Source of the DNA: Patescibacteria group bacterium
GTDB lineage: Bacteria > Patescibacteriota > Patescibacteriia > 2-01-FULL-39-33
Direction: 5' to 3'
DNA length: 32,000 nt
Assembly: GCA_041649575.1 (NCBI GenBank)
Contig: JBAZMW010000005.1
Span: 60,001-92,000 of the forward strand
Part shown: piece after piece, positions 4,922 through 18,806 of the stretch
Position numbering within the stretch: position 1 is the first letter of the stretch
How the letters are laid out: every line of letters begins with the position of its first letter
The notes under the pieces: generated by a model
Database searches by the model: none
Seen by the model: only the letters and a program-made list of their open reading frames with translations
Told to the model about the DNA's origin: nothing
Position numbers and translations under genes: made by a program

Positions 4922-4948
4922 TCCATGATGCACTACAACACTAACAAC

Positions 4949-4996
4949 CAGCCTGTTTCCCGCGAGGGAGATGGGCTGTATTATTTTTTATTTTTT
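4949..4996 (+). terminator. intrinsic terminator after the PRTase-like gene
   Basis: CAGCC...TCCC-GCGA-GGGA...GGCTG nested hairpin, followed by TATTATTTTTTATTTTTT. It overlaps the 3' end of the convergent LOG-like gene. Confidence 0.6.
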
Positions 4997-5520
4997 GCTA
5001 GTTTGATGGCCAGTTTTACGGCCACCGCCGGATTTTTTGCGGTCTGAATCTTTAATCTTTTTCTGCGGTCAAAATATTTACCGGCCATTTCATCGGCCCA
5101 ACCGCCAGTTCCTTTGATGGCGACAATGGGAATATTGAGCTGATAGGCAATGGCCATTTCGGTCAGCGTGCCGGAACCGCCGGAGATGGCAACGATAGCA
5201 TCACAGCTGTTAACTAAGACAAATTCACGTCCACCGCCACGCTCCATCCCGCTGACAATTAATACATCGGTGTTGATGCCCTTGTCCCAGATTTCTTTGC
5301 CTTGTCCGTAAGTCACTCCGACGGTTAGGCCCTTGCCGGCTTTAGCGCCTCGAGCAGCGGCGGTGGAAAGTGAATCATAATCTTTTTCGGCGCCGTAAAC
5401 GGTGATATTACCAGACTCGGCTATCAGTTTGCCAGCCTGGTAGGCCAATTTTTCAAGCTCTGAGGAGTATTTGAGATCAGCTGCGGAACCCATGACTCCG
5501 ATTTGTAATTTTTTGCCCAT
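4981..5520 (-). CDS. LOG/TIGR00725-like Rossmann-fold protein (SLOG superfamily)
   Basis: 179 aa. ISGGSGTLTEM matches the PGGxGTxxE-type LOG motif. Gly-rich N-terminus GVMGSA. Confidence 0.6.
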   Translation of the reverse strand: MGKKLQIGVMGSAADLKYSSELEKLAYQAGKLIAESGNITVYGAEKDYDSLSTAAARGAKAGKGLTVGVTYGQGKEIWDKGINTDVLIVSGMERGGGREFVLVNSCDAIVAISGGSGTLTEMAIAYQLNIPIVAIKGTGGWADEMAGKYFDRRKRLKIQTAKNPAVAVKLAIKLAKNKK

Positions 5521-7119: not shown

Positions 7120-7193
7120 ATAAATACCTTTTTAATTAAGGCAGGAAAACAGGCTTGCCGACGGCAAGAACTATAAGGAAAGGATCCGATACC

Positions 7194-8582
7194 ATGTCAA
7201 ACAAAACCGTAAAGCCAGAAATTCTGGGTGGCTTCCGCGATATGCTACCCAGGGACGCATTGATGTTGCAGGAGATAGTCGACATTGTCAGAAGGGTGTA
7301 TGAATCCTTTGGCTTCTTGCCGCTGGAGACGCCCTGTATGGAACGGCAAGAGGTGCTGACGGGCGGCGATCCGCATTTCAACAAAACCATCTTCATTGCC
7401 CGCACTTTGCGCGGCACGGAAGACAGGGGCGTTGAGGAGAGCTGGGACAACGACTTCGCGCTGAGGTTTGATCTGACTGTGTCTCTGGCTCGGGTGGTGG
7501 CTGCCTATCCCGACTTGCTCAAGCCGTTCAAGCGCTACCAGTTGGGCAAGGTGTGGCGCGGCGAGAGCCAGCAGTCGGGGCGTTTTCGTGAGTTCTTTCA
7601 GTTGGACTTTGACACCATCGGTTCGCGTTCGCTCAACGCCGACATCGAGACCATCCAGGTGATTTACGAGTGCCTCAAGGAGCTCGGCATCGCCAACTTC
7701 ACTATTCGGTTCAACACCCGTAAGGTTCTCAACGGGTTGGCCCAGGTGGTGCAAGTGGGTGATCGGGCCAGGAATTTCTTCCGCATTCTCGACAAGCTGG
7801 ACAGGATCGGCGCCGACGGAGTGAAGGCCGATTTGATGCGTCAGCCGGACAACGAGTTCGACGAATCGGCCGTGGCCTTGAGTGAGTCGGAAGCGGACAA
7901 GGTTCTGGGTTTTTTGTCCATCAAGGATGAACGACCCGAGGACACCTTGGCACGGCTGGAGGAGTTTTTTGCCGGTGCTCAAGGCGATGGTCAGGAAGGT
8001 CTGGCCGAACTGCGGGGCATTGTCGAGGCGCTTGATCTCTTGGGCATTCCTCGCGCCAACTGGAAGCTGGATTTGTCGGTAGCCCGTGGCCTGGACTACT
8101 ACACCGGGCCGGTGTTTGAGACGATACTCAATGACTATCCGGAGCTCGGTTCGGTGGTCGGCGGCGGGCGTTTCGATGGCCTGACCAACCGTTTCATCCC
8201 GGACAGCAATATTGCGGGCGTGGGTGCCTCGGTCGGCGTGGACCGGCTGATCGTGGGTATGCAGAAACTCGGTCTGCTCAAGGCCAAGGACTCTCTGACT
8301 CAGGTGCTGGTCACCATCTTCGATCCCAAGTACGAGCGCGAGTCAAGGGCGATGGCGGCCTACTTGAGACGTTTCGGAGTACGAACCGAGCTCTACCTGG
8401 GCGAGGATCGCACACTGCGGGCGCAGTTCGCTTACGCCACCAAGAAGGGCATCCCGTTCGTCGTGGTTCTGGGCGAAGAGGAAATCGAGGCCGATAAGGT
8501 AGCCTTGAAGGATATGGCCAGTCGCAGCCAGGAGCTCTTGACAAGAGAGGAGGTTCTTGCTAAGCTGGCAAGAGCAGAATAA
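7194..8582 (+). CDS. hisS: histidine--tRNA ligase
   Basis: ATG at 7194 follows AAGGAAAGGA; the track start at 7155 is TTG inside a leader hairpin. Class II motifs: GFRDMLP, motif 2 RYQLGKVWRGESQQSGRFREFFQLDFD, motif 3 GGGRFDGL. C-terminal anticodon-binding domain (VLVTIF...IPFVVVLGEEE). Confidence 0.9.
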   Translation: MSNKTVKPEILGGFRDMLPRDALMLQEIVDIVRRVYESFGFLPLETPCMERQEVLTGGDPHFNKTIFIARTLRGTEDRGVEESWDNDFALRFDLTVSLARVVAAYPDLLKPFKRYQLGKVWRGESQQSGRFREFFQLDFDTIGSRSLNADIETIQVIYECLKELGIANFTIRFNTRKVLNGLAQVVQVGDRARNFFRILDKLDRIGADGVKADLMRQPDNEFDESAVALSESEADKVLGFLSIKDERPEDTLARLEEFFAGAQGDGQEGLAELRGIVEALDLLGIPRANWKLDLSVARGLDYYTGPVFETILNDYPELGSVVGGGRFDGLTNRFIPDSNIAGVGASVGVDRLIVGMQKLGLLKAKDSLTQVLVTIFDPKYERESRAMAAYLRRFGVRTELYLGEDRTLRAQFAYATKKGIPFVVVLGEEEIEADKVALKDMASRSQELLTREEVLAKLARAE

Positions 8583-8603
8583 GACGCATGTTCGTTCTTA
8601 GGT

Positions 8604-8680
8604 GGGCATGTAGCTCAGTTGGCCAGAGCGCAGGGTTGTGGCCCCTGAGGTCGTGGGTTCGAGCCCCATCGTGCCCCCCA
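8604..8680 (+). tRNA. tRNA-His (anticodon GTG), CCA encoded, no encoded G-1
   Basis: Hand-folded cloverleaf. Acceptor GGGCATG/CGTGCCC. D stem GCTC/GAGC. Anticodon stem CAGGG/CCCTG with loop TTGTGGC. Variable loop AGGTC. T stem GTGGG/CCCAT with loop TTCGAGC. C73 followed by CCA. Confidence 0.85.
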
Positions 8681-8779: not shown

Positions 8780-10534
8780 TTATTTTTTTTCTTTGATTTC
8801 CATTTCTATCTCTTCGATAAACTGGGCCACTTTTTTGCTACCTAGGTCGCCCTCACCACGTTTTCTAATAGCCACGGCGGCGGCGGATTCTTCTTTCTCT
8901 CCAACCACTAAAATGTAAGGCACCTTTTCTTTCTCCGCGTTTCTGATTCTTTTGCCCAGACTCTCGTCGCTGTTGTCCAATTCGACGCGGACATTTTTTT
9001 TGAATAATTGGTCTCTAACTTTTTGGCCATAATTGTTGAATTTTTCGGAGACGGGGATAATAACTGCTTGCACCGGAGCCAGCCAGGTCGGGAAAGCTCC
9101 TGCATAGCGTTCGATCAAAAAGGCCATGGTGCGCTCCAGGCAGCCGATAGAAGAACGGTGGATGACGATGGGCCGCTCATTTTTCCCTTCTTTGTTGGTG
9201 AAAGTTAGGTCGAAGCGTTCCGGCATAACAAAGTCATATTGGACAGTAAAGGCAGTTTCTTCTTTGCCGCCGGTTCTTTTCATTTGGATATCGATTTTCG
9301 GGCCATAGAAAGCGGCTTCGTTGGCGGCCTCATAGAACGGAGCCTTAACTTCTATCAGAACCTCGCGCAAAACATTTTCGGCAAAATCCCAGGCATCGTC
9401 GTCTTTATAATATTTTTTGGTGTCCGAACGGTCGCCCAGAGACAGACGATAGCGATAGTCCACGCCCTTTTCCAGGCCCAGCGTCCCATTGATAAAATCA
9501 ATAAGGTCGAGAACTTCCTTGATGACTTGTTTGGCCTGGTCTTTGGCAGCGATGATGTGGGCGTCGGCCAAGCAAAACATGCGGACACGGGTCAGACCGG
9601 ACAATTCGCCGCTTTTCTCGTAGCGATATTGATGAGCGATTTCGCCGATGCGGTAAGGCAGCTCGCGGTAGCTGTGCTTTTCGGATTTATAAAACATGAA
9701 ATGATGCGGGCAGGTCATGGGCTTGAGGATCAATTCTTCCTCATCGATTTTCATCACCGGATACATGGTGTCTTTGTAGTAAGGATAGTGGCCGGATTTT
9801 TTGTAGAGATCGACTTTGGCCAAATCGGGAGTGACCACATGGTGATAACCGCGTTTTAATTCTTCGTCTATAGTAAAGCGCTCAAGCTCTCTTTTGATGG
9901 TGGCGCCTTTGGGGCCGAAAGTCGGCAGGCCTTTGCCAACAAGCTCGGAAAAGACGAAGAGCTTTAAATCTTGGCCGATAACTCGGTGGTCTCTTTTTTT
10001 GGCTTCTTCTTGCAGTTTTAAATATTCGTCCAATTCTTTTTGGGTGGCAAAAGCAGCGCCATAAATCCGCTGGAGCATTTTATTTTTCTCATTGCCTCGC
10101 CAATAAGCGCCAGCGACAGATAATAGCTTGAAAATCTTAACTTCGCCGGTGGACTTCAAATGGGGACCACGGCACATATTGGAGAAGTCGCCTTGCTCAT
10201 AGAAACCAACTTCTTTCTCATCCGCTTGTTTCAGTTCTTTAGCCAACTCCGCAGTGTAGGTGTATTTTTTGCTTTTTAGAAGTTTGATCGCCTCATCAAT
10301 CGGCAACAGCTTTTTTTCAATTTTTAAATCTTCTTTGACAATTTTTTTCATTTCAGCCTCGATGTCGGCCAGGTCGTCTTCGGTCACTTGATTTTGGGCT
10401 TCAAAATCATGATAAAAGCCGTTTTCAATGGCCGGGCCGACACCGGGAACGGCGCCATAAAGTCGTTCAAGCGCCTGCATCATGATGTGTGCCGCGCTGT
10501 GATTGAGGATTTCTTGCTGGTCTTGGTTATTCAT
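8780..10534 (-). CDS. thrS: threonine--tRNA ligase lacking the N-terminal TGS domain
   Basis: 584 aa. It starts directly at the editing-domain HxxxH region (NHSAAHIMMQA). Further matches: CRGPH, GAYWRG..NKMLQRIYG, class II catalytic core, anticodon-binding domain. Confidence 0.9.
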   Translation of the reverse strand: MNNQDQQEILNHSAAHIMMQALERLYGAVPGVGPAIENGFYHDFEAQNQVTEDDLADIEAEMKKIVKEDLKIEKKLLPIDEAIKLLKSKKYTYTAELAKELKQADEKEVGFYEQGDFSNMCRGPHLKSTGEVKIFKLLSVAGAYWRGNEKNKMLQRIYGAAFATQKELDEYLKLQEEAKKRDHRVIGQDLKLFVFSELVGKGLPTFGPKGATIKRELERFTIDEELKRGYHHVVTPDLAKVDLYKKSGHYPYYKDTMYPVMKIDEEELILKPMTCPHHFMFYKSEKHSYRELPYRIGEIAHQYRYEKSGELSGLTRVRMFCLADAHIIAAKDQAKQVIKEVLDLIDFINGTLGLEKGVDYRYRLSLGDRSDTKKYYKDDDAWDFAENVLREVLIEVKAPFYEAANEAAFYGPKIDIQMKRTGGKEETAFTVQYDFVMPERFDLTFTNKEGKNERPIVIHRSSIGCLERTMAFLIERYAGAFPTWLAPVQAVIIPVSEKFNNYGQKVRDQLFKKNVRVELDNSDESLGKRIRNAEKEKVPYILVVGEKEESAAAVAIRKRGEGDLGSKKVAQFIEEIEMEIKEKK

Positions 10535-10621
10535 ATATTTTGTATTAATTTTAGAGTTTTTTTATGAATTGGTCAAATATTATAATTGTCAGAAAAGAAA
10601 AGCCTTGTTAAGATAATTATT

Positions 10622-10722
10622 GCTCGTTACGGAGCGCACTCTGCACGCTTGAGTCGAGTATGGCAGCGTCTACTCTGGCAGCGCGCACCAAGGGATGGGG
10701 TTTTCGATGAGAGAATCCCATC
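10622..10722 (+). repeat. unit 0 of the hairpin-terminated ~100-nt repeat family, upstream of the island's first promoter
   Basis: GC-rich segment ending ...CACCAA|GGGATGGGGTTTTC-GATGA-GAGAATCCCATC (hairpin 10692-10722, 12-bp stem). It has the same CAA|GGG junction and GATGGG/CCCATC stem type as H20. Confidence 0.6.
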
Positions 10723-10770
10723 ATTATTTTTGTTTAAATTTAGATATTTAAAAATTTTTAATTTTTAGTA

Positions 10771-10799
10771 TTGACAAAAATATTAATATATGTTAGGAT
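10771..10799 (+). promoter_or_regulatory. sigma70-like promoter P1 of the island (drives the 226-aa gene)
   Basis: TTGACA (10771-10776), 17-nt spacer, TAGGAT (10794-10799), then ATGGGGTCA. It is near-parallel to P2 at 13747. Confidence 0.5.
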
Positions 10800-10928
10800 A
10801 TGGGGTCAATGACGCGTCGTCATCTGACGGGACAGGCAACTGTGTTGTCCTGGCCAAAGCGAGGGCGGTTTGAGTCATTGAGGCTTAAATCGCAAGTGAG
10901 TATTTCAACAAGGTAGGAGTAACTAGTC

Positions 10929-11609
10929 ATGGCGAAAGTCAAGCCGGAAGTCGAGCCGGAAGTCAAGTCGGGAGAATCGAAATCGAAGGTAGTGAGAGTG
11001 AAAGTGGAGGGGGTTTACCCAATCCTCATGAATCCCATGACCGAGGCCACGCTCGACAGCTTGATCACGGGCAATCGCCTGCCGCCGACCAAGGATTTGG
11101 CGTTCGAGGAGGTCGCGAGCAGGAAGATTTACCGTGAAGGCGGCGAGCCCGATGGCGCTATCGGTATTCCCGTGGAGAATCTGTGCTCCTGTCTGGTGCG
11201 GGCGGGACGCGAAGTCAAGAATGGCAAGAAGCAGATCAGCACGGCGGAAAGCACCACGCTGTTCTCATTTCTCTCCATTCGCGGCGAGTTCCTGCCGTTC
11301 ACCAACGATCTGACCCGGCACGGCGACGGCAAGGGTTGGGTTGTCGACAAACGTCGCGGTTGCCTGCACGACAAGGGCAAATCCACGGCGGTCGGCATCC
11401 TGCGGCCGAAATTCCCCGTCTGGGCATTCGAGTTCGTCATGGACCTCGACTTGACCGAGATCGACGAGGGCGTCGTGCGGAAGCTTGTCGAGGTCGCGGG
11501 CAAGAAAGTCGGCCTGGGCGATTTCCGGCCCACCTGCAAGGGGCCGTTCGGTCGGTTCCAGGTCGTGAGCTGGGAAGAGGCCAAGAAAGAAGTTCCGGCC
11601 GCGGCCTAG
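10929..11609 (+). CDS. hypothetical 226-aa protein with a C-terminal glycine-rich loop reminiscent of RAMP (Cas5/Cas6/Cas7-like) proteins
   Basis: RBS AGGTAGGAG lies 9 nt upstream of the ATG. K/E-rich N-terminal tail. IGIPVENLCSCLVRAGREV resembles the RAMP IPGSSLKGALR-type segment. VGLGDFRPTCKGPFGRFQVV lies ~25 aa from the C-terminus. The coding call is confident; the fold assignment is speculative. Confidence 0.75.
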   Translation: MAKVKPEVEPEVKSGESKSKVVRVKVEGVYPILMNPMTEATLDSLITGNRLPPTKDLAFEEVASRKIYREGGEPDGAIGIPVENLCSCLVRAGREVKNGKKQISTAESTTLFSFLSIRGEFLPFTNDLTRHGDGKGWVVDKRRGCLHDKGKSTAVGILRPKFPVWAFEFVMDLDLTEIDEGVVRKLVEVAGKKVGLGDFRPTCKGPFGRFQVVSWEEAKKEVPAAA

Positions 11610-11832
11610 CTCCGGTGTACATCATGTAACACGGCTACCCTGTCACGTGGGGTTTTCCAACCTCGTGCCAGGCACGCCGCACCATGGGGCGGGAGAGCAG
11701 CAATGTTCTCCCGCCAGCACTTATACATTATTATCAATGCGTGCCGATGCCACCAAAGGCACGGCTTGGTCCGGTGGCGTCCGCTGCTGCAATGAGCTGC
11801 ATGGGGTGGGAGTTCGCAAGAATTCCCGCCAA

Positions 11833-13553
11833 CTAATCAATGCGTGTTATAATGAAAATAATAAATATTGATTAGTACATTCTTCTGCGTGTGGTGTTGT
11901 TTCGCTCGGTTGCGTAGAGCGTCGCATCGCATGGTCGACCTCACCACGGGGCGAGGGTTCATCGCAATCCTCGCCGACTAATCAGTGATTATTACGGTTT
12001 AATAATTAGTGATCAGTTCTTTTTCACAGTCCTTGGTGCGGCTAAGCTCCGCTCCGCGCAGTCCGCTCTGCTGTTGTTTGCCAGGGGGCGGGAGAGCAGA
12101 GATGTTCTCCCGCCAGAGTGTATCACCCATTTTCCCAACTGGCCAAGGCGTGGCCCGGCGGTGTGGGCAATGGTTCGGCTCGGGGCGGGAGTCCATCGCG
12201 ACTCCCGCCAGCTAATCAATGGTTGTTAAAAAATTTAGTAATTATTGATTAGTTCGTTTATAAATCATGATGTGGCTGGCCGTCGCATGTCTTAGTTGCG
12301 TATCGTGTAGCCGCGCTTTCCCTGGGGCGAGGATTGAAATACATCCTCGCCAGCTAATCAATGTCCATTAATTAATTAGTGGTTATTGATTAGTACCTTT
12401 TCACTTTGACTCAGCTAGCCGCCGTAGCGCGGAGTAAGCTGCAGTGGGGCTCACCCCAGCTATGTTGAGCTCGCCATGGGGCGGGGATGGGAAACTGTCT
12501 CCGCCAAAACTACTATCACCGTGTCGTTGGGTCGGCTTCGGCTACCTTTGATCCGGCGAACCGGCGCAGAGCGTGGGGCGGGGATTGTAACAAATCCCCG
12601 CCAACTAATCAGTGTGTATTATGCAAATAGTAAATATCGATTAGCTCTTTCTGGTCCTAGCATTCTTGGCCGCCGTGGTGTGAGGCACTGCAAGACGGAG
12701 CGGAGCTGCGCACGGGGCGGGAGGTAGCAATACTCTCCCGCCAATATCTACCAAACACTTCTCAATGGCAGGGCTTTCCGGCGCGTAGTTCAGCCCCGCC
12801 AGGCGAAGCGTTCTGTTGCAAGGGGCGGGGGTTCAGTGATGTTCTCCCGCCGTACCTTTTGCTTTTTAGGCCGCCCAGAGCAGTCAGCGGTAGAGCCTGG
12901 TCCTCTGTGGCAGTCCATGGGCGGGAGTCCTCACCCGGCTCCCGCAACTATTTATTGGCGTTTGTTCCTCGGCGGAGCTACGCAGCCTGCCGCATAGTTC
13001 GGCCAGGTGTAGCGACGCACTCCCTGGGGCGGAGGTCGGTAGTCATGATCTCCGCCGACTAATCAGTGTTCATAATAATTTGTGATTAATGATTAGTTCA
13101 TTTGTTAGACGGTTATGCTCAGGCGCAGTTCCGCGGAGCAGAGTATAGCTCGGCAGACACCGGCGTACTTGTCCATGGGGCGGAGACGGGAAACTGTTTC
13201 CGCCGAGCGATCAACCAGCTTCGGCTGTCAGAAAAGGATAATCGGTATGACTGGTGGTATGGGCATGCACAAACATGGCACGAGCGGTCATGTGCATAAT
13301 GACCAGCATTTCACTGGCAAGAAGGGCGGCAAGCGTGCTGAGCGGAAAGGAAAGACGCACAAACAGCGTCGCCTGAACCGCGGGACGCACAAGAACAGGT
13401 TCAAGGAAGACTAGCTGACATTAGGCCATGGTGCCGCGGAGCAAACATCTCTCCGGCATTGCGGGCTGTGGCGCGGGGCGGAAATCGGCAACGGTTTCCG
13501 CCATTAATCAATGTTTATTAAGAATTTAGTAATTATTGATTAGTTTTAGTTCT
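11833..13553. repeat. seven AT-rich palindromic modules (CTAATCARTG-N20-30-ATTGATTAG), each 1-2 nt after a GC hairpin
   Basis: M1 11833-11875, M2 11978-12016 (degenerate right arm TAGTGATCAG), M3 12212-12252, M4 12354-12393, M5 12605-12644, M6 13059-13096, M7 13504-13553. The loops contain TATAAT-like hexamers. Each module is followed by a T-rich stretch on the plus strand. Confidence 0.7.
13247..13414 (+). CDS. candidate 55-aa highly basic His/Lys/Arg-rich small protein inside the array
   Basis: ATG at 13247 is preceded by AAAGGA. Product: MTGGMGMHKHGTSGHVHNDQHFTGKKGGKRAERKGKTHKQRRLNRGTHKNRFKED*. It fills the single ~270-nt gap in the otherwise ~100-nt periodic array. No homology check was possible. 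Confidence 0.3.
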   Translation: MTGGMGMHKHGTSGHVHNDQHFTGKKGGKRAERKGKTHKQRRLNRGTHKNRFKED

Positions 13554-13746
13554 TTCGGCAAAGCTGAGTAAAGCTGCCTGTTGTCCGCCGACGCACGGGG
13601 CGGGAGTTCGCAAGAATTCCCGCCAAGCACATCTCATCTTTGGCGGCATCGTTGGGCGCAGTATGGCTCGGCATGCTTTGCCAGAGTGCGGCGCGGAACG
13701 GAGATCGGTAACGGTCTCCGTTATTATATTTTTAATAAATTTATTG

Positions 13747-13775
13747 TTGACAATTTTAATATTTTTTGTTAATAT
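13747..13775 (+). promoter_or_regulatory. sigma70-like promoter P2 of the island (drives the helicase)
   Basis: TTGACA (13747-13752), 17-nt spacer, TAATAT (13770-13775), then ATGGTGTCA. Confidence 0.5.
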
Positions 13776-13883
13776 ATGGTGTCAGGCCAAAATCAATAAC
13801 AAGCAGTTCTTTGACACTTTGGCCTGTGAGAATATAGGAAATTGAAGAAGCGAAGTAAAACCAGGCGAGAAGGAAGACAAATC

Positions 13884-15671
13884 ATGAAACATCCGAAACA
13901 TCTGGACCTTTGGAGTTGTTTCCCGCATGACTGTTATCCAAATATCTTGGATAATCAGAGGGACGCTCTCCGGGTCATCGAGCAGGAAGGCGGTTGCGCT
14001 CTATTGCAACTGCCGACCGGCTCAGGCAAGACAGCAGTGGGGTACGCTTTTCTCAAGGCCGTCTTGAAGAGGGCTGAGGGGCCGGTGTACTATGTCGTTC
14101 CCACCAAGACGCTGGTGGAGCAGGTCAGAAGGCTCCACCCCGACGTCAAGATCATATTTGGTCGAAACGAATACTCATGTCTGTTCTACCCCGATCAGGA
14201 GCTGAAGGCCGACGAAGTGCCTTGCTCGATGCTGCACGATTGCCCGCATCGCGTGGACCAGGAAACTGGCCAGACCGCTGTGCCCGGCGTCAAGCCCTGT
14301 CCTTATTTGCAGAAGAAGTGGGAGGCGAGCCAAGGCGGTATCGTGGTTTGCACTACGGCGTTCTTTCTCTTCACCCACTTGTTCGCCAGCGAAGACGCCA
14401 AGCCGGCAGCGCTGGTGATCGACGAAGCCCATGGCATTGCTCATACGGTTCGCGGTTGTCTCTCCTACGAGATTACCGACTACCATCTTGGGCGGGCGGT
14501 GGAGCTACTACGGCCAGTGGACAACGAACAGGCCGAGCGACTTGACGCTTTCTTGCGGACGATGGTTCGTATCATCAAGAAGAAGGCGTCTGGCGAGCGG
14601 CAGATCATCGAGGATGAGGAGGTCGCCAAGCTGCTGGATAAGCTCAAGCAGATCAACATCACGCGACTGGGAGAAAAGGTGCGCCAGGCGATTAGGCAGG
14701 GAGTAATCGACGCCAAAGCGGAACGCGAAACCCTGCGTCGGCTGGAGATTGTCTTACGCGACTTGTCGCATTATGCCCGATCGCTCGAATACTCCCGGCC
14801 TAACGAGAAGCGTAACGCCCTCAACTACACCTATGCGTTTTGGAGCCAGGAGCGCGCCGAAGGCGAGCGGGTGAAGTACCGTCTGTTCATCAAGTGCTAC
14901 TATGTGGCGCCGCTCATACGGCGGATGTTGCCGGAGATGACTGTGGCTTACTCGGCGACCATCGGCGATCCCGAAGTGTTCGGTTTCGAGACTGGCATTG
15001 AGGCGCCGTTTCACAGCTTCGGTTCGGACTTCCCGGTTGGCAAAACGCAGATTTTTGTGCCGACCGATACGCCGAATTTGGCCGTCAACGTTCGTGGTCG
15101 TCAGGATCGCACCAGGGCGCTAAGGAGGATCGCCAAGGCCTGCCGCCGTTTTGCCGATCAAGGCAGGCGGTCGCTGGTGGTGGTGATCTCCAACGAGGAA
15201 CGCGCTAAGTTCCTGACGCTCGCCGGCGAGGAAGGCGTCGCAGCCGTCAGCTACGGTAATGGCGTCAAGCCAAAAGACGCGGCCCTGAAGTTCAAGGAGG
15301 GTGAGGGTGATGTCTTGGTTGGCACAGCGGCCAATTACGGAGAGGGCTTTGACTTACCCAAGGGCATCGCTCCGGTCATCTTCTTTCTCCGGCCAGGATT
15401 TCCGCATCCGCACGATCCGGCGACAGTGTTTGAGGAGAGGCGATTCGGCGGCATGCGTTGGCGGATCTGGAATTGGCGTGTGATGATGGAGGCCTTGCAG
15501 GTGCGGGGTCGCAACATCAGAAGCGCCGAGGATGTGGGCGTCTGCTTCTTCATTTCCCAGCAGTTCCGGCGGTTCGTTTTCGCCGCCCTGCCCGACTGGT
15601 TGCAGCCGGCGTATTGTGGCGATAAGGACTGGGAGGAGTGCCTTGAAGAGGCGGAGCGATTGCTTTCCTAG
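13884..15671 (+). CDS. XPD/DinG/Rad3-family superfamily 2 DNA helicase with a 4-Cys (Fe-S) insertion
   Basis: ATG at 13884 follows GAGAAGGAAG; the track start at 13842 is TTG. Motif I LPTGSGKT. Four Cys between motifs I and II (YSCLF, VPCSM, HDCPH, KPCPY). Motif II VIDEAHGI (DEAH). Also SATIG, motif V GTAANYGEGFDLP and motif VI QVRGRNIRSAEDVG. Confidence 0.85.
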   Translation: MKHPKHLDLWSCFPHDCYPNILDNQRDALRVIEQEGGCALLQLPTGSGKTAVGYAFLKAVLKRAEGPVYYVVPTKTLVEQVRRLHPDVKIIFGRNEYSCLFYPDQELKADEVPCSMLHDCPHRVDQETGQTAVPGVKPCPYLQKKWEASQGGIVVCTTAFFLFTHLFASEDAKPAALVIDEAHGIAHTVRGCLSYEITDYHLGRAVELLRPVDNEQAERLDAFLRTMVRIIKKKASGERQIIEDEEVAKLLDKLKQINITRLGEKVRQAIRQGVIDAKAERETLRRLEIVLRDLSHYARSLEYSRPNEKRNALNYTYAFWSQERAEGERVKYRLFIKCYYVAPLIRRMLPEMTVAYSATIGDPEVFGFETGIEAPFHSFGSDFPVGKTQIFVPTDTPNLAVNVRGRQDRTRALRRIAKACRRFADQGRRSLVVVISNEERAKFLTLAGEEGVAAVSYGNGVKPKDAALKFKEGEGDVLVGTAANYGEGFDLPKGIAPVIFFLRPGFPHPHDPATVFEERRFGGMRWRIWNWRVMMEALQVRGRNIRSAEDVGVCFFISQQFRRFVFAALPDWLQPAYCGDKDWEECLEEAERLLS

Positions 15672-16208
15672 TATCACGGACTGGCTCGCCATGGCTGCGC
15701 CTTGCTTGCCACTGCCTGCCGTCGTCCGCCAAGGGGCGGAGATCTGGTCCATCCGGGTCTCCGCCACATTCTTTGTTTTCAAACGTCGCTCGGCAACGTT
15801 GGGTCTTCAATGGCTTACCGCTGTTGCGCGTCGCAAGGGGCGAGGATGGTCTTTGACTAATTCTCGCCATTCTACACTTGTCAAAGAGATTCTTTGGCAG
15901 ATGTGGTCTTTATGAGGTAGCGTATTCTTCAGTTGAGCTCAGTCTAGCTCGGTACAGCTGAGCGCCGCAGCCATTTCCAAGGGGCGGGGGTTGGGCTTGC
16001 CCAAATCTCCGCCAACGCTTATCTTCTCGGCAATGCTTGGCACAGTATCCCAGTGTTGTGCGTCGCTGAGTTAGCCAAGGGATGGGACTGGTCAAACGGT
16101 CTCATCAAGATTATTTTTCTGGGCACGTCTCAGTATTCAATGGCCCGCTGCTGTTGAGTAGTGCAGAGCCCCCAGTCCAAGGGGCGGGAATCCATCGTGG
16201 TTCCCGTC
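15672..16208 (+). repeat. array block B: 5 further hairpin-terminated units downstream of the helicase
   Basis: H17 15733-15765, H18 15837-15868, H19 15981-16013, H20 16079-16106, H21 16181-16208. All are preceded by CAA|GGG. Confidence 0.75.
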
Positions 16209-16230
16209 GATTTTTTTTATTTAAAATTAA

Positions 16231-16273: not shown

Positions 16274-17980
16274 ATGTCTTACACCATAGAAAAAATCAAA
16301 AAGCAAATTATCGAACAGGTCTCTGGCGCCGTAGGCCAGAAAATCGATAAAAGCCAGCTGGAAGTGACGGTGCCGCCGGACGCCTCTTTAGGCGATTTGG
16401 CCGTGCCCTGTTTTTATCTGACCAAACTGCTGCGGCGTTCGCCCAACCAGATTGCCGACGAGCTGCAGGCCAGAATCCGTCCGACAGGACTGATCAAGTC
16501 GGTGCAAAATGTCGGGCCTTATTTGAATTTTTTTGTCAGTAGCGGAGTTTTTGGCAAGGAGGTTTTAAAAGAAATAGCCAGATTAAAAGATAAATACGGC
16601 CGCGGCAAATTAGGCGAAGAAAAAGTAATGATTGAGTTTTCCCAGCCCAATACCCACAAAGAATTTCATATCGGCCACGTGCGTAATGCGGTTTTGGGTG
16701 ATAGTTTGGTGAAGCTTAATAAGTTCGCCGGACGCAAAGTGGTGGCGGTCAATTATATTGGCGATATCGGCGCTCATGTGGCCAAGTGTTTGTGGGCGCT
16801 TAAAAAATTTCACCAGCAGGAAGAACCGCCAAAGAATAAAGGCAAATTTTTAGGTCAGATTTATACCGAAGCGGTGAGAAAAATAGAAAGCAATCCCCAG
16901 TTCAAGCGAGAGGCCGATGAGGTTTTGCAAAAATTGGAGCGAGGCGACAAAAAGATGCTGGCTTTGTGGCAGAAAACCAGGAAGTGGAGTTTGGTGGAGT
17001 TTGAGGCGATTTACAAAACGCTGGGCATCAAGTTTGATCAAATTTTTTATGAGAGCGAGGTGGAGCAGCCGGGCAAAAAGATCGTTGAGAAGCTGCTAAA
17101 AGACGGCTTGGCCGAAAAATCGGAAGGTGCCGTAATTATCAATTTGGAAAAATACAATTTAAAAAATTTTTTACTGCTCAAATCCGACGGCTCATCGCTT
17201 TATTCCACCAAAGACCTGGCCTTGGCCGAGCTCAAATTCAAAAAATTCAAAATTGACAAAAGCGTGGTGGTAGTCGACAGCCGACAAACTTTTTATTTGC
17301 AGCAACTATTCAAAACCCTGGAAGTCATCGGCTTCAAAAAAAAGATGGAACATATCGCTTACGAGTTCGTCACCTTAAAGGATGGCGCCATGTCTTCGAG
17401 AGCGGGCAACGTGGTGTTGTTTGAAGATTTTTTTGAAGAAATGAAAGCTCTGGCCAAAAACGAAACCAAGAAAAGGCACGAGAATTGGCCGGCCAAAAAA
17501 ATCAGCCAAGTGGCCCGACAGCTGACTTTATCGGCTGTTAAATTCAATATGCTGAAAATCAGCAACAGCAGCATCATTGTTTTTGACAAAAATGAAGCTT
17601 TGAGTTTTGAGGGCTTTACCGGCCCTTACCTGCAATACACTTTAAGCCGCATTGCCAGTTTGCTAAAAAAGAGCCAGACCGTTGTCGCCGCCAACATTGA
17701 TTACAGTAAATTAAACAGTGACTTGGAAAAAGAAATTATTTTGAAGCTGGCGGAGCTGCCGGAGGTTATTAAGCGGGCGACAGCAACCAGCGAACCCAGC
17801 GAACTGGCCAAGTATTTATTTGATTTGTCCAGGCTGTTTTCTAATTTTTATCAGAGTTTGTCGATTTTGACCGCCGAAGAAAAAACCAAAAAAGCGCGAT
17901 TGACGCTAGTGGTGGCGGTCAGGCAGGTTTTGGTTAACGGTTTGAATCTGTTGGGCCTGGAAGCACTGGAGCAAATGTAG
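16274..17980 (+). CDS. argS: arginine--tRNA ligase
   Basis: 568 aa. HIGH-type motif NTHKEFHIGHVRN, MSSR (KMSKS-equivalent) GAMSSRAGN, and a C-terminal DALR-type anticodon-binding region ending ...EQM. Confidence 0.9.
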   Translation: MSYTIEKIKKQIIEQVSGAVGQKIDKSQLEVTVPPDASLGDLAVPCFYLTKLLRRSPNQIADELQARIRPTGLIKSVQNVGPYLNFFVSSGVFGKEVLKEIARLKDKYGRGKLGEEKVMIEFSQPNTHKEFHIGHVRNAVLGDSLVKLNKFAGRKVVAVNYIGDIGAHVAKCLWALKKFHQQEEPPKNKGKFLGQIYTEAVRKIESNPQFKREADEVLQKLERGDKKMLALWQKTRKWSLVEFEAIYKTLGIKFDQIFYESEVEQPGKKIVEKLLKDGLAEKSEGAVIINLEKYNLKNFLLLKSDGSSLYSTKDLALAELKFKKFKIDKSVVVVDSRQTFYLQQLFKTLEVIGFKKKMEHIAYEFVTLKDGAMSSRAGNVVLFEDFFEEMKALAKNETKKRHENWPAKKISQVARQLTLSAVKFNMLKISNSSIIVFDKNEALSFEGFTGPYLQYTLSRIASLLKKSQTVVAANIDYSKLNSDLEKEIILKLAELPEVIKRATATSEPSELAKYLFDLSRLFSNFYQSLSILTAEEKTKKARLTLVVAVRQVLVNGLNLLGLEALEQM

Positions 17981-18752: not shown

Positions 18753-18781
18753 TTGACTAAAACAGCAGAAATTGTTAAGAT
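18753..18781 (+). promoter_or_regulatory. candidate ileS promoter
   Basis: TTGACT (18753-18758), 17-nt spacer, TAAGAT (18776-18781). This is why the TTG start at 18753 in the track is unlikely to be the real start. Confidence 0.45.
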
Positions 18782-18806
18782 AAGAGCAATTTTTAAATTA
18801 AAAATT

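What the first reader, a model, noticed from the sequence alone, without database searches (positions are those of the whole stretch)
10622..16210. Island between thrS and argS: RAMP-like protein + XPD/DinG helicase embedded in 22 hairpin-terminated units (candidate undescribed RNA-protein system)
The architecture can be read directly from the sequence. The order is: unit 0, AT-rich promoter P1, the 226-aa gene, then 16 units with 7 AT-rich palindromic modules and a 55-aa basic sORF, then promoter P2, the Fe-S helicase, 5 more units, and the argS promoter. Everything is co-oriented on the plus strand. The hairpin family occurs nowhere else in the 32 kb. I see no cas1/cas2, integrase, transposase, reverse transcriptase or obvious nuclease/toxin. 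A DinG-family helicase, a small protein with a RAMP-type glycine loop and a hairpin array together recall type IV CRISPR-Cas. However, the array behaves like a diverged tandem family of structured elements, not like repeat-spacer units. Possible interpretations are a fixed-guide or scaffold RNA system, a type-III-TA-like processed RNA array, or an RNA or DNA decoy array.
Basis: partly seen in the sequence, partly recalled or inferred. Interest (0 to 1): 0.9.

Follow-up and report, generated by a model that had tools for sequence, protein, structure and literature searches.

The report
Helicase-linked VIPR guide-RNA system
The island between thrS and argS is a VIPR system, a CRISPR-like RNA-guided DNA-recognition system first described in 2026 preprints, here in a little-studied chromosomal form from a Patescibacteria genome with 22 guide-RNA genes and an iron-sulfur helicase.

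Summary
A GC-rich island (about 10.6-16.2 kb) carries a 226-aa gene, a roughly 600-aa XPD/DinG-type Fe-S helicase gene and 22 co-oriented units that each end in a hairpin. The hairpin occurs nowhere else in the window.

Upstream of each hairpin lie about 10-13 pentamers of the form N-G-Y-N-N, in fixed register with the hairpin.

The 226-aa protein has a Cas7/RAMP fold. Its family profile matches the solved SUSP1 Vipr protein (E 1.7e-10, full length), and the RNA-contacting G-loop (GxGD[F/W]RP) and thumb arginine are conserved.

These are the defining parts of VIPR systems (two bioRxiv preprints, 2026):
- a Vipr protein;
- vrRNAs of 9-16 GGY/NN pentamers with a structured 3' tail;
- an accessory (vap) gene.

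In the published system, Vipr polymerises one protomer per pentamer and the NN dinucleotides read double-stranded DNA, skipping every third base.

Vipr, helicase and arrays co-occur in 27 of 34 Patescibacteria loci, and in 3 of 3 loci looked up starting from the helicase.

This is therefore a new member of a known, very recent kind, probably the helicase-associated type mentioned only in passing. It is not type IV CRISPR, REP elements or a toxin-antitoxin array. The targets and the helicase's role remain unknown.

The parts
10586..10614 (+). promoter-like site P0 in front of vrRNA-0
   Evidence: TTGTCA-17-TAAGAT with a TG extension.
10642..10722 (+). vrRNA-0: 10 pentamer blocks (10642-10691) plus tail hairpin (10692-10722) followed by a T-run
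   Evidence: In-register NGY blocks; terminator-like hairpin; covariance-model hit at 30.1 bits, on a training sequence.
10771..10799 (+). promoter-like site P1 for vipr and array 1
   Evidence: TTGACA-17-TAGGAT, 10 of 12 matches, with TG.
10929..11609 (+). vipr: 226-aa Vipr (ancestral RAMP, Cas7-like) protein
   Evidence: - No match in Pfam, NCBIfam or PADLOC; phrog_4652 at E 4.7e-15.
- AlphaFold pLDDT 88.7. All top 50 Foldseek PDB hits are Cas7-family chains.
- The family profile matches PDB 36pp_D, SUSP1 Vipr, at E 1.7e-10 over the full length.
- The G-loop GLGDFRP aligns to GVGDWRP of SUSP1.
11666..11715 (+). vrRNA-1 (tail 11686-11715; only 4 blocks are in the tail register, the upstream body is degenerate or shifted)
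11738..11830 (+). vrRNA-2 (13 blocks; tail 11803-11830)
11830..11878 (+). AT-rich palindromic module 1
   Evidence: RNA fold -13.3 kcal/mol, z -5.9.
11888..11975 (+). vrRNA-3 (12 blocks, 10 of them canonical NGY; tail 11948-11975)
11976..12018 (+). AT-rich palindromic module 2
   Evidence: z -4.85.
12036..12114 (+). vrRNA-4 (GY tract 12036-12080, register shifted by 1; tail 12085-12114)
12147..12209 (+). vrRNA-5 (7 blocks; tail 12182-12209)
12210..12254 (+). AT-rich palindromic module 3
   Evidence: z -6.95.
12274..12351 (+). vrRNA-6 (10 blocks; tail 12324-12351)
12352..12396 (+). AT-rich palindromic module 4
   Evidence: z -6.65.
12413..12505 (+). vrRNA-7 (13 blocks; tail 12478-12505)
12555..12602 (+). 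vrRNA-8 (short in-register body of 4 blocks; tail 12575-12602)
12603..12647 (+). AT-rich palindromic module 5
   Evidence: z -3.3.
12674..12742 (+). vrRNA-9 (8 blocks; tail 12714-12742)
12767..12851 (+). vrRNA-10 (11 blocks; tail 12822-12851)
12869..12946 (+). vrRNA-11 (10 blocks; tail 12919-12946)
12971..13056 (+). vrRNA-12 (11 blocks; tail 13026-13056)
13057..13100 (+). AT-rich palindromic module 6
   Evidence: z -4.2.
13122..13204 (+). vrRNA-13 (11 blocks; tail 13177-13204)
13247..13414 (+). 55-aa highly basic sORF inside array 1 (possible small accessory protein; function unknown)
   Evidence: Homologs lie inside the array of L001 and next to vipr in L003, but in none of the other loci searched. 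No family match.
13455..13502 (+). vrRNA-14 (short in-register body; tail 13475-13502)
13503..13546 (+). AT-rich palindromic module 7
   Evidence: z -4.9.
13557..13624 (+). vrRNA-15 (8 blocks; tail 13597-13624)
13646..13722 (+). vrRNA-16 (GY tract 13646-13695; tail 13695-13722 followed by a T-rich run, the likely terminator of array 1)
13747..13775 (+). promoter-like site P2 for the helicase and array 2
   Evidence: TTGACA-17-TAATAT, with TG.
13884..15671 (+). vap-like accessory gene: XPD/DinG-family Fe-S SF2 helicase (595 aa from ATG 13884; the ORF opens at TTG 13842)
   Evidence: - Pfam Helicase_C_2, DEAD, ResIII and DEAD_2.
- PADLOC typeIV_DinG profile at E 1.9e-38 over the full length; phrog_2488 at E 1.4e-31.
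- Best solved relative is XPD Ta0057 at E 1.4e-10.
- Conserved GxGKT, DEAH and four cysteines.
- The 595-aa NCBI protein P0121 fixes the start.
15683..15765 (+). vrRNA-17 (10 blocks; tail 15733-15765)
15787..15868 (+). vrRNA-18 (10 blocks; tail 15837-15868)
15916..16013 (+). vrRNA-19 (13 blocks; tail 15981-16013)
16029..16106 (+). vrRNA-20 (10 blocks; tail 16079-16106)
16122..16208 (+). vrRNA-21 (12 blocks; tail 16181-16208 followed by T8, the likely terminator of array 2 and the end of the island)

Best explanation
The island is a chromosomal VIPR (Viral Interference Programmable Repeat) system of a Patescibacteria (CPR) bacterium.

What the sequence shows here:
- vipr (10929-11609) encodes a small RAMP of Cas7-like fold.
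- The 22 units are vrRNA genes. Each has about 7-13 pentamers N-G-Y-N-N (a relaxed form of the published GGY/NN repeat) in fixed register with a GC-rich 3' tail hairpin that often carries a GNRA loop.

Mechanism taken from the SUSP1 and P. fulva systems studied in the preprints (inferred for this locus):
- One Vipr protomer binds each pentamer.
- The G-loop (D198-F199-R200 here) and the thumb arginine (R159) sequester the G-G-Y bases.
- The two variable NN bases of every pentamer are presented to pair with double-stranded DNA, skipping one target base after each pair. This forms an R-loop triplex that silences transcription.
- The variable NN dinucleotides of the 22 vrRNAs are therefore 22 hard-wired guides.

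Transcription, inferred from consensus sites only:
- P0 drives vrRNA-0.
- P1 drives vipr plus vrRNAs 1-16, ending at tail 16.
- P2 drives the helicase plus vrRNAs 17-21, ending at tail 21.
- Individual vrRNAs would then be cut out of these precursors. The seven 18-20 bp AU-rich hairpin modules are candidate double-strand-RNase (RNase III-type) sites.

The helicase (inferred): the XPD/DinG-type Fe-S helicase is the accessory (vap) enzyme. By analogy with DinG in type IV-A CRISPR and Cas3 in type I, it is most likely recruited to the Vipr-vrRNA-DNA complex, where it would translocate 5'->3' on single-stranded DNA to extend or enforce interference with transcription or replication of the target. 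The target is most likely a phage or another mobile element of the host.
For: Vipr protein:
- The profile of 33 family members matches SUSP1 Vipr (PDB 36pp_D) at E 1.7e-10 over residues 4-188 against 4-189.
- GLGDFRP aligns with GVGDWRP. These are the residues reported to bind G1, G2 and Y3; R159 aligns with R138 (with the residue roles).
- R159, R200 and P201 are invariant and D198 and F199 nearly invariant in the family.
- The AlphaFold model has pLDDT 88.7 and pTM 0.82. All of its top 50 PDB fold hits are Cas7 family: Csm3, type VII Cas7, Cmr4 and gRAMP. One viral fold hit is annotated as a RAMP.

vrRNAs:
- G autocorrelation peaks at lags 5, 10, 15 and 20 in the arrays of the window, L001, L003 and L015. 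Coding controls do not show this.
- Anchored on the hairpin, 177 pentamers give G 77% at position 2, Y 93% at position 3 and under 0.1 bit at positions 1, 4 and 5.
- 14 of the 22 units have at least 9 in-register blocks, within the published range of 9-16.
- All 14 strict GY tracts on the plus strand of the 32 kb lie inside the island.

Tail:
- 9 of 10 stem pairs show compensatory changes.
- The covariance model finds nothing outside the island in the window.
- It finds 22 further tails, all on the vipr strand, in 11 other Patescibacteria loci.

Linkage:
- Among 34 Patescibacteria loci, Vipr and the helicase are the only two conserved gene clusters. The helicase is present in 27 of them.
- GY tracts flank vipr homologs in almost every locus, including the prophage-borne relatives outside the Patescibacteria.
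- All 3 helicase homologs looked up independently have vipr within 6 kb.

Literature:
- VIPR loci are described as vipr plus vap plus flanking vrRNA arrays, about 25% of them chromosomal. Types III-V carry nuclease or helicase vaps.
Against: - No expression data exist. Transcription, processing and RNP formation are inferred.
- The first G of the published GGY motif is only 35% G here. The preprint allows 'a related consensus', but binding of NGY has not been shown.
- The tail is a simple hairpin, not the pseudoknot of the SUSP1 clade.
- Five units have only 4 blocks in register with their tail. They may be decayed or may carry a register shift.
- No natural target was found with the 1-nt-skip rule.
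- I could not see the preprint's figures or tables, so assignment to a numbered VIPR type is a deduction.
- The helicase's role has not been tested for any VIPR system.
Confidence: 0.9

Rival explanations
1. The locus is the same VIPR machinery, but it serves the host's own gene regulation (fixed guides against chromosomal promoters or genes) rather than defence against phages or mobile elements.
For: - The locus is chromosomal and sits between housekeeping aminoacyl-tRNA synthetase genes.
- The published action of VIPR is transcriptional silencing.
- No viral target was found.
Against: - No significant self-target was found in the 32-kb window or in about 0.9 Mb of related loci: 3 hits at 85% or more, against about 0.8 per shuffled guide set.
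- The preprint reports no self-targeting for any VIPR type, and reports viral targets for the chromosomal types III and V.
- The island's GC content and its variable insertion sites point to horizontal acquisition.
- Only 32 kb of the genome could be searched.
Confidence: 0.1
2. The locus is a degenerate or minimal type IV (DinG-associated) CRISPR-Cas system whose repeats have diverged after loss of adaptation.
For: - The small protein has a Cas7-like fold.
- The helicase matches the PADLOC typeIV_DinG profile at E 1.9e-38.
- There is an array of hairpins with variable intervening sequence.
Against: - No Cas5, Cas6, Cas8 or Cas11 is present, and no other conserved gene accompanies the pair in 34 loci.
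- The helicase scores 19 bits against the 400-bit cut-off of the Csf4 equivalog. It has no tblastn hit in 72,556 plasmid records; that type IV-A systems are mainly plasmid-borne is from general knowledge, not tested here.
- The 'spacers' carry a 5-nt NGYNN periodicity locked to the hairpin. Sequence acquired from foreign DNA would not have this.
- The protein's nearest characterised relative is Vipr, not Csf2.
Confidence: 0.03
3. The array is an RNA decoy or sponge, or a type III toxin-antitoxin-like processed array, or REP-like elements and terminators unrelated to the two genes.
For: - The units are tandem, structured and co-oriented.
- Some tails are followed by T-runs.
Against: - No toxin or endoribonuclease gene is present.
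- The units are about 100 nt long with a pentamer code, not short identical repeats.
- The hairpin family is confined to the island. In other genomes it is found only next to vipr or the helicase and only on their strand.
- Homologous RNAs were shown to be guides in SUSP1.
Confidence: 0.02

Closest known systems
VIPR systems (Vipr protein + vrRNA + vap); studied examples are type II from Escherichia phage SUSP1 and a Pseudomonas fulva prophage (bioRxiv 10.64898/2026.04.26.720920 and 10.64898/2026.04.26.720927)
   Same: - A small single-RRM RAMP with the same G-loop and thumb residues.
- Guide genes of about 100 nt made of pentamer repeats with a conserved G-Y and two variable bases, capped by a structured 3' tail.
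- One vrRNA upstream of the genes and arrays downstream.
- A minimal locus with two protein genes.
   Different: - Chromosomal in Patescibacteria rather than carried by a phage.
- 22 vrRNAs, against 4 detected in SUSP1.
- The motif is relaxed to N-G-Y (first G only 35%).
- The tail is a plain hairpin, often with a GNRA loop, instead of a pseudoknot.
- AU-rich hairpin modules lie between some vrRNAs.
- The accessory gene is an XPD/DinG Fe-S helicase rather than a small DNA-binding protein. The preprint mentions helicase vaps only in one sentence (types III-V) and does not test them.
Type IV-A CRISPR-Cas (Csf complex + DinG/Csf4)
   Same: - An RNA-guided RAMP filament paired with a DinG-family helicase.
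- No nuclease and no adaptation genes in the locus.
- Interference probably works by blocking gene expression rather than by cutting.
   Different: - No Cas5, Cas6 or Cas8 and no CRISPR repeat-spacer array.
- The published VIPR code has a 5-nt period and a gapped reading (2 paired bases, 1 skipped on the target). Class 1 CRISPR guides pair contiguously, with base pairing disrupted at every sixth position.
- The helicase is not a Csf4 equivalog and has no close plasmid relative.
Type III / type VII Cas7 (Csm3, Cmr4, Cas7 of the Cas14 complex)
   Same: These are the best structural matches to the 226-aa protein (Foldseek E about 2e-5, TM about 0.5): an RRM core, a glycine-rich loop and a thumb.
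   Different: - Sequence identity is only 10-16%.
- The protein works without Cas10, Cas5 or Cas11 partners.
- The preprint places Vipr proteins as a separate, early-branching RAMP clade. I did not test that here.
TRAP-trp leader RNA (11 (G/U)AG triplets with 2-3 nt spacers)
   Same: This is an analogy only (from general knowledge): an oligomeric protein reads a short G-containing motif repeated every 5 nt or so along an RNA.
   Different: The protein fold is unrelated. TRAP forms a closed ring and regulates by attenuation. Its RNA does not guide recognition of DNA.

Membership tests
VIPR system | Vipr protein: a small (~20 kDa) single-RRM RAMP homologous to characterised Vipr | tested here: met
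   - Family profile against SUSP1 Vipr (PDB 36pp_D): E 1.7e-10, full length. Pairwise comparison: E 0.0085 over the C-terminal 60 residues.
- The AlphaFold model hits only Cas7-family folds.
VIPR system | Conserved residues that sequester the GGY motif (SUSP1 D177, W178, R179 in the G-loop; R138 in the thumb) | tested here: met
   The aligned residues are D198, F199, R200 and R159. They are invariant or conserved in at least 90% of 33 homologs.
VIPR system | vrRNA genes: 9-16 tandem pentamers with conserved GGY (or a related consensus) alternating with hypervariable NN | tested here: met
   - The pattern is N-G-Y-N-N: G 77%, Y 93%, positions 4 and 5 under 0.1 bit, over 177 blocks.
- 14 of 22 units have 9-13 in-register blocks.
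- Periodicity at lags of 5 nt.
- The first G is weak (35%), so this counts as a 'related consensus'.
VIPR system | A conserved, structured 3' tail directly after the repeat tract | tested here: met
   The hairpin keeps a fixed register with the pentamers. 9 of 10 pairs show compensatory changes. The covariance model finds tails in 11 other loci. The structure is a hairpin, not the SUSP1 pseudoknot.
VIPR system | A minimal locus: vipr plus one accessory (vap) gene with a DNA-related function, flanked by vrRNA arrays | tested here: met
   Vipr and the helicase are the only two conserved genes across 34 loci, with the helicase in 27 of them. Reciprocal look-up from the helicase: 3 of 3.
VIPR system | vrRNAs are expressed as RNAs of about 100 nt and co-purify with Vipr | not testable with these tools
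   Only consensus promoter and terminator sites are available.
VIPR system | Natural targets that match the NN code under the 1-nt-skip rule | tested here: inconclusive
   - Local search: 3 hits at 85% or more, against about 0.8 per shuffled set.
- Three full 20-22-base patterns gave 0 hits in IMG/VR.
- Two 16-base cores gave 10 hits. The best (L075) matches 19 of 20 guide bases, or 20 of 22 if the tail-adjacent block is counted, but it is within chance and the skipped base is not at the wobble position.
- One exact 20-base hit in the metagenomes lies in an ABC-transporter gene. By my rough guess of the collection's size, about one such hit is expected by chance.
VIPR type assignment (I-VII) | Position on the Vipr phylogeny together with the vap family; helicase or nuclease vaps belong to types III-V, and III and V are the nuclease types | not testable with these tools
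   The figures and data tables of the preprint are not held. 'Type IV' is a deduction from the text.
Type IV-A CRISPR-Cas | Csf1 (Cas8-like), Csf2 (Cas7), Csf3 (Cas5) and Cas6/Csf5 effector genes | tested here: not met
   Only one RAMP gene is present. PADLOC and NCBIfam give no Cas hit for it. No other conserved neighbour was found.
Type IV-A CRISPR-Cas | A CRISPR array of near-identical repeats with spacers of about 32 nt | tested here: not met
   The hairpins are diverged and carry compensatory changes. The intervals are 65-126 nt, apart from the 270-nt gap that holds the sORF, and carry the pentamer code.
Type IV-A CRISPR-Cas | Csf4/DinG helicase | tested here: inconclusive
   - PADLOC typeIV_DinG profile: E 1.9e-38, full length.
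- NCBIfam cas_csf4: 19.4 bits against a cut-off of 400.
- No plasmid tblastn hit.
- The best solved relative is archaeal XPD.
REP/BIME-type intergenic palindromes | Dispersed genome-wide in many intergenic regions, independent of particular genes | tested here: not met
   No copies lie outside the island in the 32 kb. In the other loci searched, all 22 hits lie on the vipr strand. Only 32 kb of this genome was available.
Type III toxin-antitoxin (ToxIN-like) | A short tandem RNA repeat followed by an endoribonuclease toxin gene | tested here: not met
   No toxin family was detected. The units are about 100 nt long and not identical.

The most novel reading that the evidence does not exclude
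This Patescibacteria clade may be a mechanistically distinct, helicase-coupled branch of VIPR. In this reading, an XPD/DinG Fe-S helicase is loaded at the Vipr R-loop triplex, as a functional parallel or evolutionary bridge to DinG in type IV and Cas3 in type I CRISPR. Large chromosomal batteries of more than 20 hard-wired guides would be matured at AU-rich hairpin modules and would use a relaxed N-G-Y code. This would give CPR bacteria a non-adaptive RNA-guided defence. None of this has been tested in the preprints, which characterise only the small DNA-binding-vap type.
Probability: 0.35. Interest if true: 0.65.

Novelty: new member of a known kind. Interest (0 to 1): 0.5.

Why it matters
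VIPR is a months-old discovery, proposed to be the ancestor of CRISPR effector complexes. Only phage-borne systems with small DNA-binding accessory proteins have been studied experimentally.

This locus and its relatives are a compact natural example of the helicase-associated form. The relatives comprise 189 Vipr homologs and at least 479 helicase homologs (90%-identity cluster representatives), mostly from Patescibacteria. The locus has 22 guides and a Vipr protein for which AlphaFold gives a high-confidence model. It offers a concrete way to ask three questions:
- What does a helicase add to a gapped-code RNA-guided binder?
- How are long vrRNA arrays processed?
- Do ultra-small CPR bacteria rely on hard-wired guides for defence?

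It also bears on the proposed evolutionary path from VIPR to helicase-using class 1 CRISPR systems.

Tried and rejected
Searches that returned nothing useful:
- Rfam (4227 families, E up to 1) found nothing in 10-17 kb, so there is no hammerhead or other known RNA family.
- ARAGORN found only tRNA-His at 8604-8680.
- Pfam, NCBIfam and PADLOC gave nothing for the 226-aa protein or the sORF.
- tblastn of the helicase against plasmids gave no hit. Against phages it gave only weak Rad3-like hits at 22-25% identity.
- Literature searches on DinG, Cas7 and CPR found nothing relevant. The PDB sequence hit led to the VIPR preprints.

Ideas considered and dropped:
- An adaptive CRISPR array: dropped once the 5-nt register appeared.
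- The tails as tRNA-like minihelices, because of the ...GCCA ending: dropped because the CC is base-paired and ARAGORN finds nothing.
- The AT-rich modules as promoters: no sigma-70-like site was found in them on the plus strand. They fold as long AU hairpins instead.
- The sORF as a universal component: it is found in only the three closest loci.

Target hunting with the published 1-nt-skip rule led nowhere, both locally and with five IMG/VR scans and one metagenome scan. Nothing exceeded what chance predicts.

The preprint's supplement, as held, does not mention helicase, type IV or Patescibacteria, so the type could not be confirmed.

Full report
**1. What is in the sequence**

The region from 10.6 to 16.2 kb is a GC-rich island, about 55-61% GC where most flanking windows are about 40-49%. 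It lies between thrS (8780-10534, minus strand) and argS (16274-17980, plus strand), both confirmed by Pfam.

It holds two substantial plus-strand ORFs:
- a 226-aa ORF at 10929-11609;
- an ORF of about 600 aa at 13842/13884-15671.

The larger ORF is an SF2 helicase of the XPD/DinG/Rad3 family.
- It matches Pfam Helicase_C_2, DEAD, ResIII and DEAD_2.
- Its best solved relatives are archaeal XPD (E 1.4e-10) and FANCJ.
- In 25 aligned homologs the Walker A motif (G60-x-G-K-T64), the DEAH box (194-197) and four cysteines between them (C113, C128, C134, C153) are conserved. This arrangement is the Fe-S domain signature.

Twenty-two GC-rich hairpins lie on the plus strand: one upstream of the small gene, 16 between the genes and five after the helicase.
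- They share the form GG-GGCGGGAG...CTCCCGCC-A. Stem variants are compensated, and 9 of 10 pairs carry double changes. Loops are often GNRA.
- A covariance model built from them and run unfiltered over all 32 kb finds only these 22.

That includes the seven AT-rich palindromes, the 55-aa basic sORF (13247-13414) and the strong promoter-like sites P1 and P2.

**2. The feature that decides the matter**

Reading related loci, I noticed that the 'variable' 60-80 nt in front of each hairpin look like (GTNNN)n.
- G autocorrelation (observed over expected) peaks at lags 5, 10, 15 and 20. The values are 1.39/1.16/1.02/1.19 for array 1 of the window and 1.40/1.41/1.01/1.20 for array 2. They reach 1.99/1.86/1.57/1.54 in L015. 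Coding controls show no such pattern.
- When the 22 units are anchored on the first base of the hairpin, the bodies fall into pentamers in one register.
- Over 177 blocks, position 2 is G in 77% (1.08 bits) and position 3 is a pyrimidine in 93% (0.74 bits). Positions 1, 4 and 5 carry less than 0.1 bit.
- Fourteen units have 9-13 in-register blocks and three have 7-8. Five keep only four blocks in the tail register, so they are degenerate or frame-shifted.
- A strict tract detector (at least 7 of 9 G-Y blocks) finds 14 tracts on the plus strand of the window, all inside the island.

Sequence captured from foreign DNA could not have this property, so the array is not an adaptive CRISPR array.

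**3. The small protein**

It has no Pfam, NCBIfam or PADLOC match, only phrog_4652 of unknown function.
- A search of 5.8 billion proteins gave 189 homologs, mostly from Patescibacteria MAGs. The C-terminal motif G-L-G-D-F-R-P-x-x-x-G-P-F-G-R-F is strongly conserved.
- AlphaFold with this alignment gave a confident model, pLDDT 88.7 and pTM 0.82.
- All of the top 50 Foldseek PDB hits are Cas7-family RAMPs: Csm3, type VII Cas7, Cmr4 and gRAMP domains, with E about 2e-5 and TM about 0.5. A viral-structure search returned a protein annotated as 'Cas system-associated RAMP'.
- Decisively, the family profile matches one PDB sequence over its full length: 36pp_D, 'SUSP1 Vipr protein' (E 1.7e-10).
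- In the pairwise alignment, GLGDFRP pairs with GVGDWRP and R159 pairs with R138.

**4. What is known about that family**

Two 2026 bioRxiv preprints describe VIPR (Viral Interference Programmable Repeat) systems.
- A small Vipr RAMP, proposed to be older than the CRISPR RAMPs, binds vrRNAs of about 100 nt. These consist of 9-16 pentamers in which a conserved GGY alternates with a hypervariable NN, followed by a structured 3' tail.
- Loci typically hold vipr plus one accessory gene (vap) and are flanked by vrRNA genes.
- One Vipr protomer binds one pentamer. D177 and H17 read G1, R138 and W178 hold G2, and R179 with neighbouring residues forms a pyrimidine-only pocket for Y3.
- The exposed NN dinucleotides pair with double-stranded DNA, skipping one target base after each pair. 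No PAM is needed and either strand can be read. The result is an 'R-loop triplex' and transcriptional silencing.
- Seven types are defined. [quoted passage not shown]
- About a quarter of VIPR loci are chromosomal.

Each defining element I could test is present here: the homologous protein with the motif-binding residues, the pentamer tract, the tail in fixed register, and the two-gene locus flanked by arrays. I therefore file the island as a VIPR system. By deduction from the text it is probably the helicase-associated type (type IV). I could not verify this because the figures and data tables are not held.

**5. Linkage in other genomes**

- A scan of species-representative genomes gave 64 loci encoding relatives.
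- In the Patescibacteria group (36-58% identity), all-against-all clustering of ORFs from 34 loci yields only two genuine conserved clusters: Vipr in 34 loci and the helicase in 27. The other clusters are shadow ORFs inside these genes, and several loci without the helicase end at a contig edge.
- The flanking genes differ from locus to locus. Together with the GC contrast, this suggests the island moves horizontally.
- Between and after the two genes lie arrays of units of about 100-130 nt ending in hairpins, read directly in L001, L003 and L015. G-Y pentamer tracts are present.
- The tail model trained only on the window finds 22 more tails in 11 other loci, all on the vipr strand.
- Starting from the helicase instead, there are at least 479 homolog clusters, and the top 120 are all 52-60% identical. 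Three helicases on long contigs were looked up, and all three have vipr within 6 kb. Two have strict pentamer tracts in between. The third has two vipr paralogs and 5-nt periodicity in 3-kb gene-free flanks.
- More distant Vipr relatives (27-37% identity) occur in Desulfovibrionaceae, Planctomycetes, Victivallales, Magnetococcales and others. They have no such helicase. In the two loci I examined they lie in phage contexts. One is next to a PDDEXK exonuclease, a ParB-like gene, an AAA_24 gene, DUF669, RusA, a helicase and a methylase in L042. The other is next to an exonuclease and an integrase in Burkholderia phage vB_E436. They too are flanked immediately by pentamer tracts. This agrees with the preprint's picture of a mainly phage-borne family.

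**6. How this locus most likely works**

Shown by the sequence: the parts and their registers.

Inferred from consensus sites:
- P0 (10586-10614) drives vrRNA-0, which has its own terminator-like tail.
- P1 drives vipr plus vrRNAs 1-16, ending at tail 16, which is followed by a T-rich run.
- P2 drives the helicase plus vrRNAs 17-21, ending at tail 21, which is followed by T8.

In L001, by contrast, nearly every unit has its own TTGACA promoter and T-run terminator. Array architecture therefore varies even within this clade.

Inferred processing: the seven AT-rich modules fold into 18-20 bp AU hairpins with z-scores of -3.3 to -7. L015 has analogous palindromes of different sequence. This makes them candidates for double-strand-specific RNase cleavage. 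They would play the role that hammerhead ribozymes play in other VIPR arrays.

Inferred by homology: Vipr coats each pentamer tract, the hairpin caps the 3' end, and the NN code reads DNA under the 1-nt-skip rule.

Inferred by analogy only: the Fe-S helicase is recruited to the bound target and translocates on single-stranded DNA, as DinG does in type IV-A CRISPR. This would extend or enforce silencing, or displace polymerases. No nuclease is present in the locus.

**7. Targets**

I converted the guides to NNxNNx... patterns.
- In the window plus about 0.9 Mb of related loci there were 3 hits at 85% or more, against about 0.8 per shuffled guide set. None is convincing.
- Three full-length patterns of 20-22 specified bases found nothing in IMG/VR.
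- Two 16-base cores found 10 places. The best (L075) matches 19 of 20 guide bases, or 20 of 22 if the tail-adjacent block is counted. It is within chance given the search design, and the skipped base is not at the codon wobble position.
- One exact 20-base match in the metagenome collection lies in an ABC-transporter ATPase gene of an unrelated contig. By my rough guess of the collection's size, about one such hit is expected by chance.

Targets therefore remain unknown. Exact-match scanning is a blunt tool here, because natural matches in the preprint were accepted at 80% or more.

**8. Comparison and verdict**

It works like VIPR and is a member of VIPR. It resembles type IV-A CRISPR only in pairing a RAMP filament with a DinG-family helicase, and it fails that family's membership tests:
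- it has no Cas5, Cas6 or Cas8;
- it has no repeat-spacer array;
- the helicase scores 19 bits against the Csf4 cut-off of 400 and has no close plasmid relative, although a PADLOC typeIV_DinG profile matches at E 1.9e-38.

REP-like, toxin-antitoxin-like and decoy readings have no support.

However, the system is no longer undescribed, and the key pentamer code was missed.

Relative to the published examples this locus differs in six ways:
- a chromosomal location in a CPR bacterium;
- 22 guides;
- a relaxed N-G-Y motif;
- a plain hairpin tail;
- AU-hairpin modules;
- a helicase accessory gene that nobody has tested.

I rate it a new member of a known, very recent kind, of moderate interest.

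Noticed in passing
window 18753-22403 (+): The isoleucyl-tRNA synthetase (1216 aa) carries an inserted histidine-phosphatase (His_Phos_1, PGAM-like) domain at residues 520-688, which splits the class I catalytic domain (Pfam E 1.9e-28). This is an unusual fusion for an aminoacyl-tRNA synthetase.
   Followed up: partly
window 13247-13414 (+); L001 9817-9990 (+); L003 7537-7803 (-): A 55-57-aa highly basic protein (MTGGMGMHKHGTSGHVHNDQHFTGKKGGKRAERKGK...) is encoded inside or next to the vrRNA arrays of the three most closely related loci, but in none of the other loci searched. It has no family match. It may be a clade-specific small nucleic-acid-binding accessory protein, or an unrelated passenger.
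   Followed up: partly
window 11830-11878, 11976-12018, 12210-12254, 12352-12396, 12603-12647, 13057-13100, 13503-13546; L015 e.g. 1441-1480: AT-rich palindromic modules (CTAATCAATG...ATTGATTAG) follow 7 of the 16 tails in array 1 and fold as 18-20 bp AU hairpins. L015 has palindromes of different sequence in the same position. Their role is unexplained; processing site, operator and bidirectional signal are all possible.
   Followed up: partly
L084 11489-12076 and 12219-12806: One Kerfeldbacteria genome carries two tandem vipr paralogs (about 35% identity to the window protein) 3.6 kb downstream of the helicase. About 3 kb of gene-free sequence on each side of the helicase shows 5-nt periodicity, and in the 750 nt read directly the units have their own TTGACA promoters and terminators. 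The pentamer pattern looks like NNNGG rather than NGYNN.
   Followed up: partly
L042 6261-13718; L071 (Burkholderia phage vB_E436) 5070-9529: In the two loci examined outside the Patescibacteria, the Vipr relatives sit inside phage or prophage early or replication-recombination regions. In L042 the neighbours are a DUF3799 exonuclease, a ParB-like gene, AAA_24, DUF669, RusA, a helicase and a methylase; in the Burkholderia phage they include an exonuclease and an integrase. GY-pentamer tracts lie directly on both sides of the gene in L042.
   Followed up: partly
window 7155-8680: hisS (GC about 57-61%) is followed directly by a tRNA-His gene (8604-8680). Like the segment at 4001-5000, it is markedly more GC-rich than most of the window. 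This suggests a mosaic composition beyond the VIPR island.
   Followed up: no
L005 8001-8909: A 302-aa Vipr homolog with a long, lysine/alanine-rich N-terminal extension lies next to thrS with only two pentamer tracts and no helicase within 8 kb. It may be a helicase-less variant within the same clade.
   Followed up: no
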